Positions 1 through 40,693 of a stretch of DNA of 41,462 bases are shown here, piece after piece. Location of the stretch: positions 1 through 41,462 of the IMG/VR virus record IMGVR_UViG_2778261298_000002; one strand, 5' to 3'. Position 1 is the first letter of the stretch; every line of letters starts with the position of its first letter. A program made the position numbers and the translations under genes. Source of the stretch: a virus. Lineage: Duplodnaviria; Heunggongvirae; Uroviricota; Caudoviricetes. The notes below the pieces were generated by a model. The model ran no database searches. It worked only from the letters and a program-made list of their open reading frames with translations, and was not told the origin of the DNA.

Positions 1-2
1 CA

Positions 3-18
3 CTGTTTATCCATACAG
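3..18 (+). promoter_or_regulatory. LexA (SOS) box, distal copy
   Basis: CTGT-N8-ACAG palindrome (aCTGTttatccatACAGt) about 45 bp upstream of the dinI-like start. Confidence 0.5.
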
Positions 19-30
19 TTAAAAATAATG

Positions 31-46
31 CTGTATACAAACACAG
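31..46 (+). promoter_or_regulatory. LexA (SOS) box, proximal copy
   Basis: tgCTGTatacaaacACAGta closely matches the E. coli LexA consensus taCTGT-(AT)4-ACAGta; followed by RBS GGAGGG and ATG at 62. Confidence 0.7.
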
Positions 47-61
47 TATGGAGGGACTTTT

Positions 62-310
62 ATGCGTATTGAAATCTGCATAGCCAAAGAAAAAATGACT
101 AAAATGCCAACCGGTGCTGTGGATGCGTTAAAGGAAGAATTAACCCGACGCATCAGTAAGCGTTATGACGATGTTGAGGTGTTAGTAAAAGCCACCAGCA
201 ATGATGGCCTTTCTGTTACACGCACCGCAGATAAGGATTCTGCAAAAACTTTTGTTCAGGAGACTCTGAAAGATACCTGGGAATCTGCTGACGAGTGGTT
301 TGTTCACTAA
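62..310 (+). CDS. DinI-like DNA-damage-inducible protein (82 aa)
   Basis: Translation [11 protein letters not shown]...[15 protein letters not shown] matches the DinI family in size and conserved C-terminal ETWESADxWF motif; preceded by LexA boxes. Confidence 0.8.
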
Positions 311-560
311 TAAACACGTAAAATCTGTAACGGCTGGAAATCATTCAATACTCGCACTATCGAAAGTTCACCAGCCAACCGCAGCGCGTTCTTGCATACG
401 ACGTGGCTGCGGTCTCAACTCCGTCCCCCACCAATCATGATTGGGCAGTACCAGTACAGCACTAGTAAAAACTGGAAATAAGCAGTCTCAGCAAAATACC
501 GGCCAGACGGTGAGAAGACAAAAAAGATACGCAAAGTAGCCGCGGCCCTTAGTGACATGA

Positions 561-583
561 AATCCCGCTATACGGGCTTTTTT
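561..583 (+). terminator. Weak rho-independent terminator-like hairpin
   Basis: Short stem cccg/cggg followed by TTTTTT, about 250 nt after the dinI-like stop. Confidence 0.3.
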
Positions 584-658
584 GTATCTGCACACGATTG
601 ATTATTAGGTCCGTATAGCTAATAGTGGTATTAACCTACATATAGAATCAGAGACTTT

Positions 659-1354
659 ATGAAAAAGGAAATACTCAAGGCTCTTTGCCCTACATGCGGT
701 GGGTTACGTAACTGCACTGTGCATGGGAAGCTAACCACTAGCTGGGAGGATTCCCAATATCCAGTTTATGGGTACCATTACCATCACCTACTCCAATGCA
801 ATGGCTGTGATACTGTCTTCTATCACCACAACGAACACTTCAGTGAGCATACTACCCACGAATATCGTGATGGTGAATTTGTAGAAACGCCTATAGATAT
901 GATCACTACCTATCCTGCCGCTGAAACATTTCAAGCTCCGATATGGTTATCCAAGCTTGAATCAGTTGATCGTCAGCTCTTTCAAATATTTAATGAAATG
1001 TATTCTTCATATACTTCTGACCATTTCATTCTTTCGTCCATCGGTTTACGGACGATTTTTGATCGAACTGCTGAACTGTTACAAATTCACCCCGGTTTGC
1101 CGCTTGGTGAAAAAGTTGAAAAATTAAAACAAGATGGAGTCATAGGCGACACTGAGGCATGCGTTATATCTTCAGTAATTGATGCAGGAAACGCCGCCGC
1201 ACATCGCAGTTGGAGCCCGAATAAAAGTGAGTTCGAACAAATGCTAGAAGCTATAGAAAGTTTTGTCCAAAGAACTATCTTGGGCAAAAAATCACTTGAA
1301 CATATAACCAAACAACTCCCACCTCGGGTTACAAGACCTAAAAATAGTGCATAA
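659..1354 (+). CDS. Hypothetical protein, N-terminal CxxC...CxxC zinc ribbon plus C-terminal helical domain (possibly DUF4145-like)
   Basis: 231-aa ORF; N-terminus has CPTCGG...CNGCDTVFYHH; C-terminus has GNAAAH motif; own sigma70-like promoter (TTGATT-16-TAATAG at 598-625); occupies the slot where e14 carries mcrA, next to the invertase. Confidence 0.6.
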   Translation: MKKEILKALCPTCGGLRNCTVHGKLTTSWEDSQYPVYGYHYHHLLQCNGCDTVFYHHNEHFSEHTTHEYRDGEFVETPIDMITTYPAAETFQAPIWLSKLESVDRQLFQIFNEMYSSYTSDHFILSSIGLRTIFDRTAELLQIHPGLPLGEKVEKLKQDGVIGDTEACVISSVIDAGNAAAHRSWSPNKSEFEQMLEAIESFVQRTILGKKSLEHITKQLPPRVTRPKNSA

Positions 1355-1380
1355 TCCGCGATCATCAATGTGGCGTAAGG

Positions 1381-1937
1381 CTATGGTTTACTTGCTACAG
1401 GGAATTTTTTATACACCGTTGAAATACCCAGATCATAAATCAGTGCGACTTGCTGCTGATATATTCCCGATTCAATCAACCTGCCAGCCTGCCCCCATTG
1501 TTCTACTGTCAGCTTTGGCTTTCGCCCACCGTTCCTCCCTTCTTGTCGTGCTGCGGCAAAGCCGCCCTAGTACGTTCGACAATAAACTCTCGCTCCATTT
1601 CAGCCAGGGCACCCATCACATGAAAGAAAAAGCGCCCCATTGGTGTGCTGGTATCAATAGCATCCGTCAGGCTGCGAAAATTAACGCCACGTTCGCGCAA
1701 CTCTTCCACCAGCACGACAAGATGCCGCATACTGCGCCCCAGTCGGTCCAGTTTCCAGACCACCAGCGTGTCACCTGCCGATAATGTCCTGAGCAGCTTT
1801 TTCAGTCCTGGTCTGTCGGACTTTGTACCGCTTATCTTGTCTTCAAAAATCAGCTCACATCCTGCACAGTTCAACGCATTACGTTGTAGATCGGTGTTCT
1901 GGTCATTTGTTGATACGCGAACATAGCCAATAAGCAT
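1381..1937 (-). pseudogene. pin: Serine-recombinase DNA invertase (Pin/Gin/Hin family), frameshifted
   Basis: N-terminal 140 aa MLIGYVRVSTNDQNTDLQRNAL...GRFFFHVMGALAEMEREFIVERT is a resolvase catalytic domain; the C-terminal HTH (..EQWGQAGRLIESGI.QQQVALIYDLGISTVYKKFP) is in a different frame downstream of the stop at 1509; span is 557 nt, not a multiple of 3. Confidence 0.75.
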
Positions 1938-1991
1938 GATTGCTCCTCCTGACAAAAACAGGAACGATGCCATTTGCGCGCTATTTCTGCA

Positions 1992-2017
1992 TTTTCATAA
2001 ACGTTGGTTTGGGAGAA
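1992..2017. other. Invertase crossover site (gix/hix/pix-like), left
   Basis: 26-bp ttttcataaacgttggtttgggagaa; its reverse complement TTCTCCCAAACCAACGTTTATGAAAA matches the site at 3899-3924 and the hix/gix consensus (TTCT..AAACC.A.GGTTT..GA.AA). Confidence 0.75.
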
Positions 2018-2377
2018 GCGGCAAAACGGGATGTGGGGACAGGGGAAAATCAGATACCGGACATGGCCTCTTTTGCCAGTGGTGATGGATGGATGAAATT
2101 ACCCAACGGGAAAATCCTGCAATATGGTCGTGGTGCGGTTACGCCGACATTATCGACGCAAACAATGAGAATTACATTCAGCATCCCTTTCCCCAAAAAA
2201 GCGGACTGCGCCATGCTTACTCATTCTGGTGATGGCGGTGCGCCTTTAGGCGCTGGGCGAGGGTTCGTGATGACTGCAGAAGGCCCAACGTTAACCGGCT
2301 TTAATTCTGCTTACAGAACGTCATCAACCAGCGACACGGTATCGATGAATTACAGTTGGTGGGCTGTTGGTGAGTAA
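2018..2377 (+). other. Silent alternative tail-fibre C-terminal cassette (expressed only after inversion)
   Basis: Open frame continuing from the crossover site (..AAKRDVGTGENQIPDMASFASGDGWMKLPNGKILQYG..) with no independent start; followed directly by a tfa-like gene. Confidence 0.6.
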
Positions 2378-2388
2378 TTTTATTCAGG

Positions 2389-2841
2389 GTGATTTATATG
2401 AACGAATATGTTTATAGCGCAAGGCATAATGCTTTTTTCCCTGTGGATATGATTGATAAATATAAATCAGAGGGATGGGATTTATCAGACGCTAAGGAAG
2501 TAAATCAAAATATTATCAGTGAGTTTATGGCTGAACCGCCACAAGGAAAAATCCGTATTGCCGGAGATGATGGGCTGCCTGCGTGGGCAGATATTCCTCC
2601 ACCCACGCATGAAGAGCTTATTGAAATTACTGAATCAGAAAGACAGCTACTAATTAACCAGGCCAACGAATACATGAACAGTAAGCAATGGCCCGGTAAA
2701 GCCGCTATTGGTCGTCTGAAAGGTGAGGAACTGGCGCAATATAATTTGTGGCTGGATTATCTGGATGCACTGGAGCTGGTTGATACCTCCAGTGCGCCAG
2801 ATATTGAATGGCCTACGCCTCCGGCAGTTCAGGCCAGATGA
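2389..2841 (+). CDS. Tail fibre assembly protein (Tfa), alternative-orientation copy
   Basis: 150 aa; C-terminal motif ..LWLDYLDALELVDTSSAPDIEWPTPP typical of Tfa chaperones. Confidence 0.75.
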   Translation: MIYMNEYVYSARHNAFFPVDMIDKYKSEGWDLSDAKEVNQNIISEFMAEPPQGKIRIAGDDGLPAWADIPPPTHEELIEITESERQLLINQANEYMNSKQWPGKAAIGRLKGEELAQYNLWLDYLDALELVDTSSAPDIEWPTPPAVQAR

Positions 2842-3415
2842 CATCCGGCGCGGTGCTGGTATCTGTTGCCGTCACCGCGTCAATGTAATCCAGCACAGCG
2901 TTAAGTCTGGTTGTTTCTGCCTGCGTCAGTTTACGTCCGGCCTGCAATTTCAGTTGAATCAGACTAATGGAAGCCATTGCAGCATCAATCAGTGACTGGC
3001 GCTGTGCTTCTGCCGCGTCTACTGCGGCGCTATGCTGTGCCTCAGTATCGGTCACCCATTTCTCACCATCCCATTTATCGTATGGCGTTAATGGGGCGAT
3101 AGTGGTTGTATTTTCAGGGTAATCACCCGGAGCGGTGATTTCTTTTGATTCTCCTGTTTTGGTGCTATAGACCGTTTCACCGCGATGGTCTGGCACATAT
3201 TCCCATGAATTTAAATCTACAGAGCGACAGATTGCATAACCAGCTTTATGTGTACCTGGTGCATCCAGACAGGAACATGCCGGGATACCGACTCCGACAG
3301 CGAGATATTCAGTTGATGTAGAAATATATTCCCGCGTTTCGCCATCATAGTTATGTACGATGATTTCCCCATCATTTAAAGCGTAACCGTCTTTTCCCAA
3401 AATAGCCTGTTCCAT
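2813..3415 (-). CDS. Tail fibre assembly protein (Tfa), currently expressed orientation
   Basis: 200 aa; C-terminus ..LNAVLDYIDAVTATDTSTAPDVIWPELP; immediately downstream of the fibre gene. Confidence 0.75.
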   Translation of the reverse strand: MEQAILGKDGYALNDGEIIVHNYDGETREYISTSTEYLAVGVGIPACSCLDAPGTHKAGYAICRSVDLNSWEYVPDHRGETVYSTKTGESKEITAPGDYPENTTTIAPLTPYDKWDGEKWVTDTEAQHSAAVDAAEAQRQSLIDAAMASISLIQLKLQAGRKLTQAETTRLNAVLDYIDAVTATDTSTAPDVIWPELPEA

Positions 3416-4201
3416 TTATGCAGCCCTCACAATGTAGTTAAATGCAATGTTTCGCGGGCTACCATCACCGGCACCGGAACTAACATGATTGGTTCTCTCC
3501 ATTCTTTTACTATCATTTGTTGTTCCCTGCCCATCCTTCCACGAATGCAATAACCCACCGTCGCCAACGCTCAACTGTACGGAAAACACGGATGCAGGAT
3601 TCGGCCCAACATCACTAGCCCAAAGGTTGTCGCCGGTCCAACCAGACATTTCATGGTTATGTTCAAGGATAGATGCTGCCTGACTTGAAAGCAGCAGTCT
3701 CGCGGAATCAACACCTCGCCCATCATCCCACCCGCGAATAAACTCACCGCGCAAATCCGGTAATTTTAACTTTGGGTAAGCCTTTGCCAGTTTTGGGTAC
3801 TCTTCGGCAGAAAAAGGTGCACCGTTGCATTTCAGCCAGCCTGTTGGTGGTGTGGCTGAAGGCCACGGAACAGGCACACCAACGGGTAACGCTGAGCCTT
3901 CTCCCAAATCAAGGTTTTTGAGAGCCGTTGGTACCGTGCCGTCCGATTTGATATCACCAAACGGATTATTGCGGCTTAACAGCAGTGCGCGAAGTGCGGT
4001 AAGCAACTGGTCATACCGCCCCTTCTCCAGGCTGGCACCGGATGCCTCCACAACGCTGCAAAGCTCCTCCTGCAACATGTCAAAGTAGTCATCATCCAGA
4101 TCGGTGGCAGGCGTACCAGTCTGGGGATTACCACGGGTAAAACCGTTCTTACCCGCGCCGAACTTATCCTTCTGCGCGGTTTTCGTGTCTATACGATGCA
4201 T
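3416..4201 (-). CDS. Tail fibre protein (constant N-terminus plus invertible C-terminal receptor-binding part)
   Basis: 261 aa; conserved fibre motifs [10 protein letters not shown]...YPKLAKAYP...[11 protein letters not shown] and C-terminal [11 protein letters not shown]; crossover site lies inside the gene at about codon 93. Confidence 0.8.
3899..3924. other. Invertase crossover site (gix/hix/pix-like), right, inside the tail-fibre gene
   Basis: ttctcccaaatcaaggtttttgagag; inverted repeat of 1992-2017. Confidence 0.75.
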
Positions 4202-39607: not shown

Positions 39608-40144
39608 CTACTGAGCAAATTTAAGAAAGATATCCTGCAGCTCATCAATGACTGCAGACATCACATAACCGCACTGTTCCATGCGGAAACCAAAAGACTC
39701 GTAATACTGCACCAGTTCTGGTACTGGCTCTACAATGTGGACAACTTTACATTCAACAGCTTTACAAAATATAAAAGCACTCATAAGAGTGAGTAAAACC
39801 ATGCGCCCTTTCAATGGGTGAGATTCATCTTCTCTAGAAAACCTTTCGATCATATGGATACGAAAGATGTTTTCTTCAACCCCATAAACACAAATTGCTG
39901 CTCCTGATGGTATTCCCTGAACCCGACCTTGCTGAACAAGTTTTATGCAGAACTCATACTTTTCTCTGGAGTTGCCATAGGTGCTTAACGCATAGTCCCA
40001 TTCAAGCTCACCATAGCCACCACACAGAATCTTGTAATCATCATCACTGAGCGGACCAACAGCAAGAGGTAAGCCGACATGATCAATAATCAACTGGATA
40101 TTGTTACGTACAGATTGACCTATCTCGTCTAGGGTAAGCATCAT
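39608..40144 (-). CDS. Hypothetical protein, possibly GNAT-like acetyltransferase
   Basis: 178 aa; AT-rich gene; weak resemblance to the GNAT acyl-CoA-binding core (..LKGRMVLLTLMSAF...YYESFGFRM). Confidence 0.35.
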   Translation of the reverse strand: MMLTLDEIGQSVRNNIQLIIDHVGLPLAVGPLSDDDYKILCGGYGELEWDYALSTYGNSREKYEFCIKLVQQGRVQGIPSGAAICVYGVEENIFRIHMIERFSREDESHPLKGRMVLLTLMSAFIFCKAVECKVVHIVEPVPELVQYYESFGFRMEQCGYVMSAVIDELQDIFLKFAQ

Positions 40145-40693
40145 AGACTCTCAAGCGGAACACTAAAAATCTCATTATATCTCATTCTGATGCCCCGCAT
40201 GGATTACACCTTGAAATGAAAACACCGGGTTCCCAATAGGCACCCACAAAGTGTATAACTACTTGTTTTTCAAAAACGGTACATCCTATCGAGCATTGGT
40301 GCAACGCTAAACCGACCACTCCAGTGAACGTCAGTTTTTTCAGGCATTGCGCTGGTTTGGTTGATTTTTTGCATTTCAGAATTACCGTGCATTTTCAAAT
40401 GTAGAGATTATTTTATCGATATATCATGGGGTTATGTTATTCAGCATCACTGTTCAGGAGGCTCAATAGCGGGGTACTATACCATAACAACAGGAAGCGC
40501 CTGTCTCATTGCAAAAGAAAATTGAGATCCTCTCAAGGCATGAAGCTCTCACGAAGTGATGGAAATAATCTTATTAGCCGTTAACTTTGTTAAGGCCAAT
40601 GATAAACAATCCAGGTTCGACGATAAATAAAAAATCACACATTAAACTCTGGTGATATATCTCCCTGCTAATAGCATTGATAGAGAAAAAAGA

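What the first reader, a model, noticed from the sequence alone, without database searches (positions are those of the whole stretch)
659..1354. Unannotated zinc-ribbon protein in the mcrA-equivalent moron slot next to the invertase
In e14 and related prophages the slot just beyond pin holds the defence gene mcrA. Here it holds a 231-aa protein with an N-terminal CxxC...CxxC ribbon and a C-terminal helical domain carrying a GNAAAH motif, which I recall as typical of DUF4145 (a domain seen fused to or next to restriction/abortive-infection proteins). It has its own promoter (TTGATT-16-TAATAG) and is convergent with the phage genes. This is a plausible phage-defence or superinfection-exclusion gene of unknown mechanism.
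Basis: partly seen in the sequence, partly recalled or inferred. Interest (0 to 1): 0.7.

Follow-up and report, generated by a model that had tools for sequence, protein, structure and literature searches.

The report
Prophage zinc-domain HEPN defence candidate
The gene is real and encodes a zinc-binding sensor-like domain fused to a HEPN (DUF4145) RNase-like domain, the same layout as the proven anti-phage protein RAZR, so it is a likely but untested prophage defence gene of a known kind.

Summary

The pin-adjacent slot claim holds. The neighbouring invertase is 91% identical to e14 PinE and YmfQ is 98% identical, and e14 carries mcrA where this gene sits. Relatives lie at edges of unrelated prophages, between gpS and gpV of P2-like prophages, and on plasmids. 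They have no conserved partner gene.

The closest characterised system is RAZR (PD-T7-4; Nature 2026), a zinc-finger plus DUF4145 RNase that phage ring proteins switch on. This protein is not a detectable RAZR homologue:
- PADLOC gives no hit.
- The family profile does not find the RAZR chains held in the PDB copy.
- The N-terminal beta-domain matches no solved fold.
- The arginine essential in RAZR is absent family-wide, while R131, H182 and mostly R183 are conserved.

Best reading: a single-gene abortive-infection-type defence. It is a new variant of a known kind, and the function is untested.

The parts
659..1354 (+). CDS of 231 aa (stop at 1352-1354): zinc-binding beta-domain plus DUF4145/HEPN protein, identical to RefSeq WP_001514810.1
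   Evidence: ORF; Pfam DUF4145; PHROG 1305 E = 5e-43; RefSeq annotation; family size
659..946 (+). N-terminal domain (residues 1-96): long antiparallel beta-sheet held by a Cys4 site; proposed sensor domain
   Evidence: AF2 models (pLDDT 88.5; strands 18-30, 37-47, 53-61, 65-70, 73-78, 81-85). No PDB match better than E = 0.2. More variable than the HEPN half (29% against 40.5% mean pairwise identity)
686..697 (+). First zinc knuckle, C10-P-T-C13
   Evidence: C10 in 102/102 and C13 in 101/102 relatives
797..808 (+). Second zinc knuckle, C47-N-G-C50
   Evidence: C47 in 102/102, G49 in 98/102 and C50 in 101/102 relatives
947..1288 (+). C-terminal helical HEPN domain (residues 97-210; Pfam DUF4145 match at 115-199)
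1049..1066 (+). Helix-2 motif R131-T-I-F-D135-R136; R131 is invariant and is a candidate substitute for the missing canonical arginine
   Evidence: R131 in 102/102, D135 in 97/102 (E in the other 5), R136 in 72/102. That helix-2 residues lie next to the HEPN motif is taken from PMC3710099, not measured here
1184..1207 (+). Active-site-type motif A176-G-N-A-A-A-H182-R183 at the end of helix 3; His invariant, canonical Arg absent
   Evidence: H182 in 102/102, R183 in 98/102, G177 in 99/102. Positions -4 to -8 from the His never hold Arg (174 = T/I/V)
1289..1351 (+). Low-confidence C-terminal basic tail with a conserved [I/V]-P221-x-[R/K] motif; role unknown
   Evidence: P221 in 102/102, R/K223 in 99/102; pLDDT below 50 for 211-221
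598..625 (+).
   Evidence: Read from the sequence; not called by the scan
564..585 (+). CCCG-loop-CGGG hairpin followed by U6; possible terminator that separates the gene from dinI; weak
   Evidence: Sequence; fold -12.1 kcal/mol, z = -0.68
1381..1937 (-). Pin-type invertase, convergent with the gene and frameshifted in this window (context, not part of the system)
   Evidence: Resolvase N-terminal domain only; annotated pseudogene in CFS3292; 91% identical to PinE up to about residue 125; intact in other strains
62..310 (+). dinI-like gene upstream (context)
   Evidence: Pfam DinI E = 1e-19

Best explanation
The gene is a prophage cargo (moron) gene. It most likely encodes a single-protein, abortive-infection-type anti-phage defence built like RAZR/PD-T7-4.

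Proposed mechanism, inferred by analogy:
- The variable, zinc-stapled N-terminal beta-domain senses a protein of an infecting phage.
- Binding rearranges or assembles dimers of the C-terminal DUF4145/HEPN domain.
- The HEPN domains then cleave RNA and shut down translation, so the superinfecting phage does not propagate and the lysogen population, with its prophage, is protected.

The HEPN site here is non-canonical. The invariant His182 is kept, but the arginine of the R-x-H motif is missing. Invariant R131 (helix 2) or R183 would have to supply the positive charge.

Shown: the domain identities, the conservation pattern, the cargo location, and the lack of a partner gene.
Inferred: anti-phage function, RNase activity, sensing by the N-terminal domain, and activation by assembly.
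For: - Domains: Pfam DUF4145 is above threshold and the fold is HEPN. DUF4145 is a HEPN family that is sometimes fused to zinc ribbons (PMC3710099).
- Precedent: PD-T7-4/RAZR has an N-terminal Cys4 zinc domain (residues about 12-59) and DUF4145 (87-175). It is a proven abortive-infection RNase whose zinc domain sets specificity. Other DUF4145 defence proteins are BxaP and Ishtar1.
- Conservation: the four Cys, R131 and H182 are invariant or nearly so in 102 divergent relatives. The N-domain is more variable than the HEPN domain, as reported for RAZR.
- Context in this prophage: the gene sits exactly where e14 carries the restriction gene mcrA, and its GC content is low.
- Context of relatives: 70%-identical relatives lie at the edges of P2-like, lambda-like and P22-like prophages beside umuD, dinI and gtr cargo genes. 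About half of 47 IMG/VR contigs hold it between gpR/gpS and gpV/gpW. Some relatives lie next to type I R-M, MADS, AbiTii or Mrr genes.
- No conserved neighbouring gene was found, so it is a stand-alone unit.
Against: - There is no experimental phenotype for this protein or any member of its family.
- No PADLOC v2 model hits it or any of 102 relatives.
- The family profile and the single sequence fail to hit the RAZR chains at E<=10. Those entries are in the library, as the Gp77 match to 9Y6U/9Y9C shows.
- The arginine whose mutation kills RAZR (R146, 8 residues before H154) has no counterpart. Position 174 is T/I/V and 177 is G across the family, so RNase activity is not assured.
- The N-terminal domain model has no significant PDB match, and the RAZR zinc domain is not among the top 50 hits.
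- No relative is found in 50,697 sequenced phage genomes.
Confidence: 0.6

Rival explanations
1. A non-catalytic HEPN protein. Having lost the motif arginine, it binds RNA or a protein partner and acts as a regulator, like the MtlR branch of the DUF4145-like clade, or as a translation blocker rather than an RNase. It could still serve the prophage in exclusion or in lysogeny control.
Against: His182 is invariant in 102/102 relatives, with a nearly invariant small-residue stretch, R183 and invariant R131. That pattern suits an active site. The same paper notes families that keep the His, lack the Arg and hold other conserved basic residues that could replace it.
Confidence: 0.15
2. A toxin of an addiction or toxin-antitoxin module that stabilises the prophage or plasmid, with an unrecognised antitoxin (a small ORF or RNA) nearby.
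For: HEPN toxins of HEPN-MNT modules are close structural hits (5yep, 7ae2, 8xdj). Relatives occur on plasmids, including Y. pestis pMT1.
Against: No conserved neighbouring gene was found in 44 GTDB loci or 44 viral loci. The upstream DNA is not conserved between E. coli, Citrobacter and Enterobacter copies. Rfam gives no credible RNA in 1..2500. RAZR itself is non-toxic alone.
Confidence: 0.08
3. A DNA-binding phage regulatory protein, as the PHROG label suggests, using the zinc ribbon to bind DNA.
For: PHROG 1305 is labelled 'DNA binding protein'. Zinc ribbons often bind nucleic acids.
Against: The label is an automatic family annotation. Two thirds of the protein is a HEPN fold with a conserved His site. 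The location is a cargo slot at prophage ends, not a regulatory region.
Confidence: 0.05
4. A phage counter-defence protein, for example a decoy or inhibitor that uses a HEPN-like scaffold.
For: It is prophage-borne and rapidly varying in its N-terminal half.
Against: It is absent from all 50,697 sequenced phage genomes, where counter-defence genes are common. It occurs in chromosomal contexts beside R-M, MADS and Abi genes and on plasmids. Every characterised DUF4145 protein found in the literature search is a defence protein.
Confidence: 0.05

Closest known systems
RAZR / PD-T7-4 (E. coli UMB1727, RRL46918.1; Vassallo 2022 PMC9519451; Zhang 2026 PMC13017515; PDB 9Y6U, 9Y9C)
   Same: Both are single-gene proteins of similar size (231 aa here; RAZR's ORF spans 34..694, about 220 codons). 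Both have an N-terminal Cys4 zinc domain, with knuckles about 33-37 residues apart, followed by a C-terminal DUF4145/HEPN domain with a conserved His. In both, the N-terminal domain is the more variable part, there is no partner gene, and the gene is carried on mobile elements next to integrases.
   Different: No detectable sequence relationship was found (PADLOC, and family profile against the PDB chains). The N-terminal domain here is about 25-30 residues longer and forms a 5-6-stranded beta-sheet with no PDB match. RAZR's essential R146 (8 residues before the His) is T/I/V here. No phenotype, trigger or oligomer data exist. I could not obtain the RAZR sequence for a direct alignment.
Pfam DUF4145 (PF13643), a HEPN family (Anantharaman 2013, PMC3710099)
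   Same: The protein scores above the gathering threshold, keeps the G-N-x-A-A-H signature and has the HEPN helical fold. The paper lists zinc-ribbon fusions and dsDNA-virus members for this family.
   Different: It belongs to the roughly 20% of DUF4145 members reported to lack the full R-x-H motif. Here the His is kept and the Arg is lost.
McrA in cryptic prophage e14 (E. coli K-12)
   Same: Same position: immediately beyond the pin invertase of an e14-type tail-fibre module (PinE 91% and YmfQ 98% identical). Both are prophage cargo genes.
   Different: There is no sequence or fold relationship. McrA is annotated as a Type IV methyl-directed restriction enzyme, which acts on DNA. mcrA is co-directional with pinE, whereas this gene is convergent with the invertase.
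DS-38 (WP_001313577.1; DefensePredictor, PMC13092281)
   Same: A validated E. coli defence protein that combines HEPN and zinc-finger domains.
   Different: The domain order is reversed (HEPN at the N-terminus with a canonical RNRVVH motif, multiple zinc fingers at the C-terminus) and the protein is 366 aa. hhalign finds no similarity.
BxaP and Ishtar1 (other DUF4145-containing defence proteins)
   Same: Both use a DUF4145/HEPN domain as the presumed effector, in anti-phage (BxaP) or anti-plasmid (Ishtar1) defence.
   Different: DUF4145 is N-terminal in both and is fused to unrelated C-terminal domains (HEAT-like in BxaP; a beta/alpha domain in Ishtar1). Neither has a zinc domain.

Membership tests
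Pfam DUF4145 (PF13643) / HEPN superfamily | Score against the family HMM at or above the curated gathering threshold | tested here: met
   39 bits against 23.1, E = 8.8e-10, residues 115-199 on HMM positions 4-87 of 88. Ten longer relatives also pass.
Pfam DUF4145 (PF13643) / HEPN superfamily | Four-helix HEPN core fold | tested here: met
Pfam DUF4145 (PF13643) / HEPN superfamily | R-x4-6-H catalytic motif at the end of helix 3 | tested here: not met
   His182 is invariant and lies at the end of helix 164-181. No Arg occurs at -4 to -8 in any of 102 relatives. PMC3710099 reports the motif in only about 80% of DUF4145 members, so this does not exclude family membership.
RAZR / PD-T7-4 | Architecture: N-terminal Cys4 zinc domain plus C-terminal DUF4145, about 25 kDa, single gene | tested here: met
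   compared with the HHpred ranges for PD-T7-4 (zinc ribbon 12-59, DUF4145 87-175).
RAZR / PD-T7-4 | Detectable sequence homology to RAZR | tested here: not met
   No PADLOC v2 hit for the protein or 102 relatives. I assume from memory that this release holds a PD-T7-4 model; I could not list the models. phmmer and two family profiles find no RAZR chain at E<=10, although 9Y6U/9Y9C are in the library. No profile-profile test was possible without the RAZR sequence.
RAZR / PD-T7-4 | Catalytic pair R146 / H154 (Arg 8 residues before the His) | tested here: not met
   The His equivalent (H182) is invariant. Position -8 (174) is T/I/V. The correspondence of H154 to H182 is inferred from the two mappings onto the Pfam model, not from a direct alignment.
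RAZR / PD-T7-4 | RPB9-like zinc-ribbon fold of the sensor domain | tested here: inconclusive
   The domain-only model (pLDDT 88.5) has no PDB hit better than E = 0.2 or TM 0.41, and no RAZR chain appears among the top 50. Foldseek is weak on small domains, and no direct superposition was possible.
RAZR / PD-T7-4 | Sensor domain more variable than effector domain | tested here: met
   Mean pairwise identity 29% (residues 1-96) against 40.5% (residues 97-210).
RAZR / PD-T7-4 | Anti-phage phenotype, activation by phage ring proteins, higher-order assembly, non-specific ssRNA cleavage | not testable with these tools
   These need wet-lab work or multimer modelling.
PHROG 1305 | Full-length match to the family profile | tested here: met
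   E = 5.3e-43, residues 2-225 on profile positions 11-224 of 226. The family label 'DNA binding protein' is not a tested function.
DS-38 (HEPN plus zinc-finger defence protein) | Same protein or family | tested here: not met
   Different accession, 366 aa, reversed domain order; hhalign probability 0.4%.
e14 pin-adjacent cargo slot (mcrA position) | Gene lies directly beyond a PinE-type invertase of an e14-type tail-fibre module | tested here: met
   PinE 91% and YmfQ 98% identity; gene order compared with K-12 e14.

The most novel reading that the evidence does not exclude
This widespread family is a separate lineage of zinc-domain/HEPN immune proteins. Its N-terminal domain would be a new zinc-stapled beta-sheet sensor that recognises a different class of phage trigger than RAZR's ring proteins. 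Its HEPN site would work without the canonical arginine, either through a relocated Arg (R131 or R183) or without catalysis. That would show the sensor and the active site of this architecture evolving independently.
Probability: 0.3. Interest if true: 0.6.

Novelty: new variant of a known kind. Interest (0 to 1): 0.4.

Why it matters
If the family is active, it adds a second, sequence-unrelated branch to the zinc-domain/DUF4145 class of single-protein immune sensors, of which RAZR is the only mechanistically understood member. It would be a natural test of two questions: whether activation by supramolecular assembly is general for this architecture, and how a HEPN RNase works when the motif arginine is missing.

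It also documents that the position beyond pin in e14-type tail modules, the gpS-gpV junction of P2-like prophages, and prophage termini are interchangeable cargo slots that can hold defence genes.

For annotation, 'DUF4145 domain-containing protein' and the PHROG label 'DNA binding protein' could be replaced by 'putative zinc-domain HEPN defence protein'.

Tried and rejected
- **Identity with DS-38 (rejected).** DS-38 is the HEPN plus zinc-finger system of DefensePredictor. Its sequence, recovered from Table S8, is 366 aa with reversed domain order. hhalign finds nothing.
- **Known defence models (no result).** PADLOC gives no hit for the protein or 102 relatives. NCBIfam gives nothing meaningful.
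- **RAZR sequence (not obtained).** PDB sequence searches with the protein and two family profiles did not retrieve the RAZR chains, although the entries are present. The RAZR paper has no supplements held as text. Vassallo's tables give only the accession and HHpred ranges. The DefensePredictor tables hold neither RRL46918 nor any peptide of this family.
- **Conserved upstream element or antitoxin (rejected).** Upstream DNA is not conserved between E. coli, Citrobacter and Enterobacter copies; in Enterobacter it runs into a tRNA-like att region. Rfam gives only a sub-threshold CssrB match (E = 0.83).
- **Terminator before the gene (unsupported).** Its fold is no better than shuffles.
- **Conserved partner gene (none found).**
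- **Relatives in sequenced phage genomes (none).** The only hit is a chance-level match at E = 2.
- **Duplicated zinc domain in longer relatives (rejected).** The extra N-terminal region is a different small zinc ribbon plus a helical segment.
- **Literature (nothing found).** No paper names WP_001514810. A search for HEPN, zinc ribbon and anti-phage found nothing closer than RAZR.

Full report
**1. The observation**

The window holds an ATG-to-stop ORF of 231 aa at 659..1354 on the + strand. It contains C10-P-T-C13, C47-N-G-C50 and A176-G-N-A-A-A-H182-R183.

It is a real gene:
- The identical protein is RefSeq WP_001514810.1, annotated 'DUF4145 domain-containing protein'. It occurs at 99% identity or more in 35 records among 5,426 complete E. 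coli genomes.
- The protein collection's index lists the exact sequence in 8,218 blocks.
- A profile of close homologues finds 2,696 representative clusters at E<=1e-3. Of these, 289 match full-length at E<=1e-30.

So 'unannotated' is wrong for public databases.

The proposed promoter strings are present at 598-603 and 620-625. The -10 matches only 3 of 6 positions and lacks the final T. The scan did not call it, and it found no excess of promoter-like sites. A terminator-shaped hairpin at 564-585 folds no better than shuffled sequence.

**2. Domain identities**

- Pfam DUF4145 matches residues 115-199 at 39 bits, against a gathering score of 23.1.
- PHROG 1305 matches full-length (E = 5e-43).
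- An AlphaFold2 model (pLDDT 83) shows an N-terminal all-beta domain (strands up to residue 85) and a helical C-terminal domain (97-208).
- Anantharaman et al. (PMC3710099) already classed DUF4145 as a HEPN family, sometimes fused to zinc ribbons and found in dsDNA viruses.
- The N-terminal domain modelled alone (pLDDT 88.5) has no PDB match better than E = 0.2.

**3. Conservation**

In 102 representatives that are at most 50% identical to one another:
- C10, C47, R131, H182, W185 and P221 are invariant.
- C13, C50, G177, R183, D135 and E200 are nearly invariant.

The His lies at the end of helix 3, where HEPN domains carry their R-x4-6-H motif. No arginine occurs 4 to 8 residues before it. 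Position 174 is T/I/V and position 177 is G. The site is therefore non-canonical. R131 in helix 2, which that paper places next to the motif, or R183 may replace the lost Arg. This is inference.

The N-terminal domain is more variable than the HEPN domain (29% against 40.5% mean pairwise identity).

**4. Genomic context**

The window is a dusA-integrated E. coli prophage. In strain CFS3292 the order is dusA, integrase, dinI, this gene, invertase, tail fibres, Mu-like baseplate, HK97-type head and P27-type terminase.

The tail module is e14-related. The invertase is 91% identical to PinE, and YmfQ is 98% identical to e14 YmfQ. In e14, mcrA follows pinE directly. The 'mcrA-equivalent slot' claim therefore holds, except that this gene is convergent with the invertase while mcrA is co-directional with pinE.

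The gene has 41% GC against 55-60% in the late genes.

Where relatives are found:
- Relatives 70% identical, in Citrobacter and Enterobacter, lie at the very edge of P2-like, lambda-like and P22-like prophages beside umuD, dinI and gtr cargo genes.
- Forty-seven IMG/VR contigs encode relatives. In about half of them the gene lies between gpR/gpS and gpV/gpW of P2-like elements.
- At least 136 places in GTDB species genomes across Proteobacteria, Acidobacteriota, Bacteroidota and Chloroflexota encode relatives. No partner gene is conserved, and neighbours occasionally include R-M, MADS, AbiTii or Mrr genes.
- Seventy-two plasmids carry relatives, including Y. pestis pMT1.
- None of 50,697 sequenced phage genomes has one.

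**5. Closest known system**

PD-T7-4 was found by functional selection in E. coli (PMC9519451) and later renamed RAZR (PMC13017515). It has a Cys4 zinc domain (residues about 12-59) and DUF4145 (87-175).
- It acts by abortive infection and is non-toxic alone.
- It is activated when 24 copies assemble around phage ring proteins: an Erf-like recombinase or portal proteins.
- It then cleaves ssRNA.
- R146A and H154A abolish defence, and the zinc domain sets specificity.

The architecture here is the same, but membership is not shown:
- No PADLOC model hits this protein or its relatives.
- Neither the protein nor its family profiles find the RAZR chains at E<=10, although 9Y6U/9Y9C are in the library.
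- The sensor domain is longer and has no match among solved folds.
- RAZR's essential Arg has no counterpart.

I could not obtain the RAZR sequence, so the H154-to-H182 correspondence rests on the two mappings to the Pfam model.

DS-38, another HEPN plus zinc-finger system, is a different protein with reversed domain order. BxaP and Ishtar1 show that DUF4145 is used repeatedly as a defence effector.

**6. Mechanism and rivals**

Best-supported reading (confidence 0.6): a stand-alone prophage cargo gene for abortive-infection-type defence.
- The zinc-stapled beta-domain senses a phage protein.
- The HEPN domains, as dimers or higher assemblies, then cleave RNA.

Only the domains, the conservation pattern and the context are shown. 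The phenotype, RNase activity, trigger and assembly are inferred from RAZR.

Rivals:
- A non-catalytic HEPN regulator or RNA binder (0.15), suggested by the missing Arg.
- An addiction or toxin-antitoxin toxin (0.08), weakened by the lack of any conserved neighbour or upstream element.
- A DNA-binding protein, as in the PHROG label (0.05).
- A counter-defence protein (0.05).

**7. Verdict**

The gene is annotated, and its architecture now has a well-studied precedent. It is a new variant of a known kind, with a distinct sensor domain and an Arg-less HEPN site. It is a reasonable candidate for experiment but not a surprise to a specialist. Interest: 0.4.

Noticed in passing
window 1381..1937 (-): The Pin-type invertase next to the gene is frameshifted. 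Only the Resolvase N-terminal domain is in frame, and identity to PinE is lost after about residue 125. The same gene is intact (185 aa, Resolvase plus HTH_7) in other strains that carry the identical DUF4145 protein (L084, L086, L088).
   Followed up: partly
window 2639..3921: This tail-fibre / tail-fibre-assembly segment matches the CFS3292 prophage in reverse orientation (L001 22880..21596), while the flanks are co-linear. The invertible segment is therefore flipped between the two strains, which is consistent with past Pin activity.
   Followed up: no
window 39608..40144 (-): A 178-aa ORF lies just inside the other prophage end, next to the dusA remnant at about 40288-40392. It has no Pfam or PADLOC hit. 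In strain CFS3292 the same slot holds a Panacea-domain protein plus a 153-aa hypothetical protein. This is a second variable cargo slot holding an uncharacterised gene.
   Followed up: partly
window 1289..1351 (residues 211-231): The predicted low-confidence C-terminal tail carries an invariant Pro (P221, 102/102) in a conserved [I/V]-P-x-[R/K] basic motif. No explanation was found. It could be an RNA-contact or inter-subunit peptide.
   Followed up: no
L101-L131 (IMG/VR) and L004, L005, L006, L012 (GTDB): In P2-like prophages, relatives recur at one site, between the tail-completion genes gpR/gpS and the baseplate genes gpV/gpW (22-23 of about 44 viral loci). This suggests a cargo hotspot at that junction.
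   Followed up: partly
L145 6001..6723 (Y. pestis pMT1, NC_004835.1 78466..79188): A 41%-identical relative (WP_002224263.1) sits on the plague plasmid pMT1, flanked by IS100, IS256-family and IS1618 elements, about 5 kb from the phospholipase D gene. About 50 Yersinia plasmids carry it.
   Followed up: no
P0079, P0104, P0109, P0112, P0131, P0162 (relatives of 400-500 aa): Some relatives carry an extra N-terminal region of about 180 aa. It starts with another small CxxC...CxxC ribbon (weak Lar_restr_allev hits) followed by a helical segment. It is not a duplication of the beta-domain.
   Followed up: partly
phage genome collection (50,697 records): No relative of this protein exists in sequenced phage genomes. 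Yet it is common in prophages of bacterial genomes and in 47 IMG/VR contigs, and PHROGs holds it as family 1305. The contrast is unexplained.
   Followed up: no
window 311..563: About 250 nt with no convincing gene lie between dinI and the hairpin before the DUF4145 gene. The only Rfam match is a sub-threshold CssrB hit on the minus strand (380..503, 18.6 bits against a gathering score of 76).
   Followed up: partly
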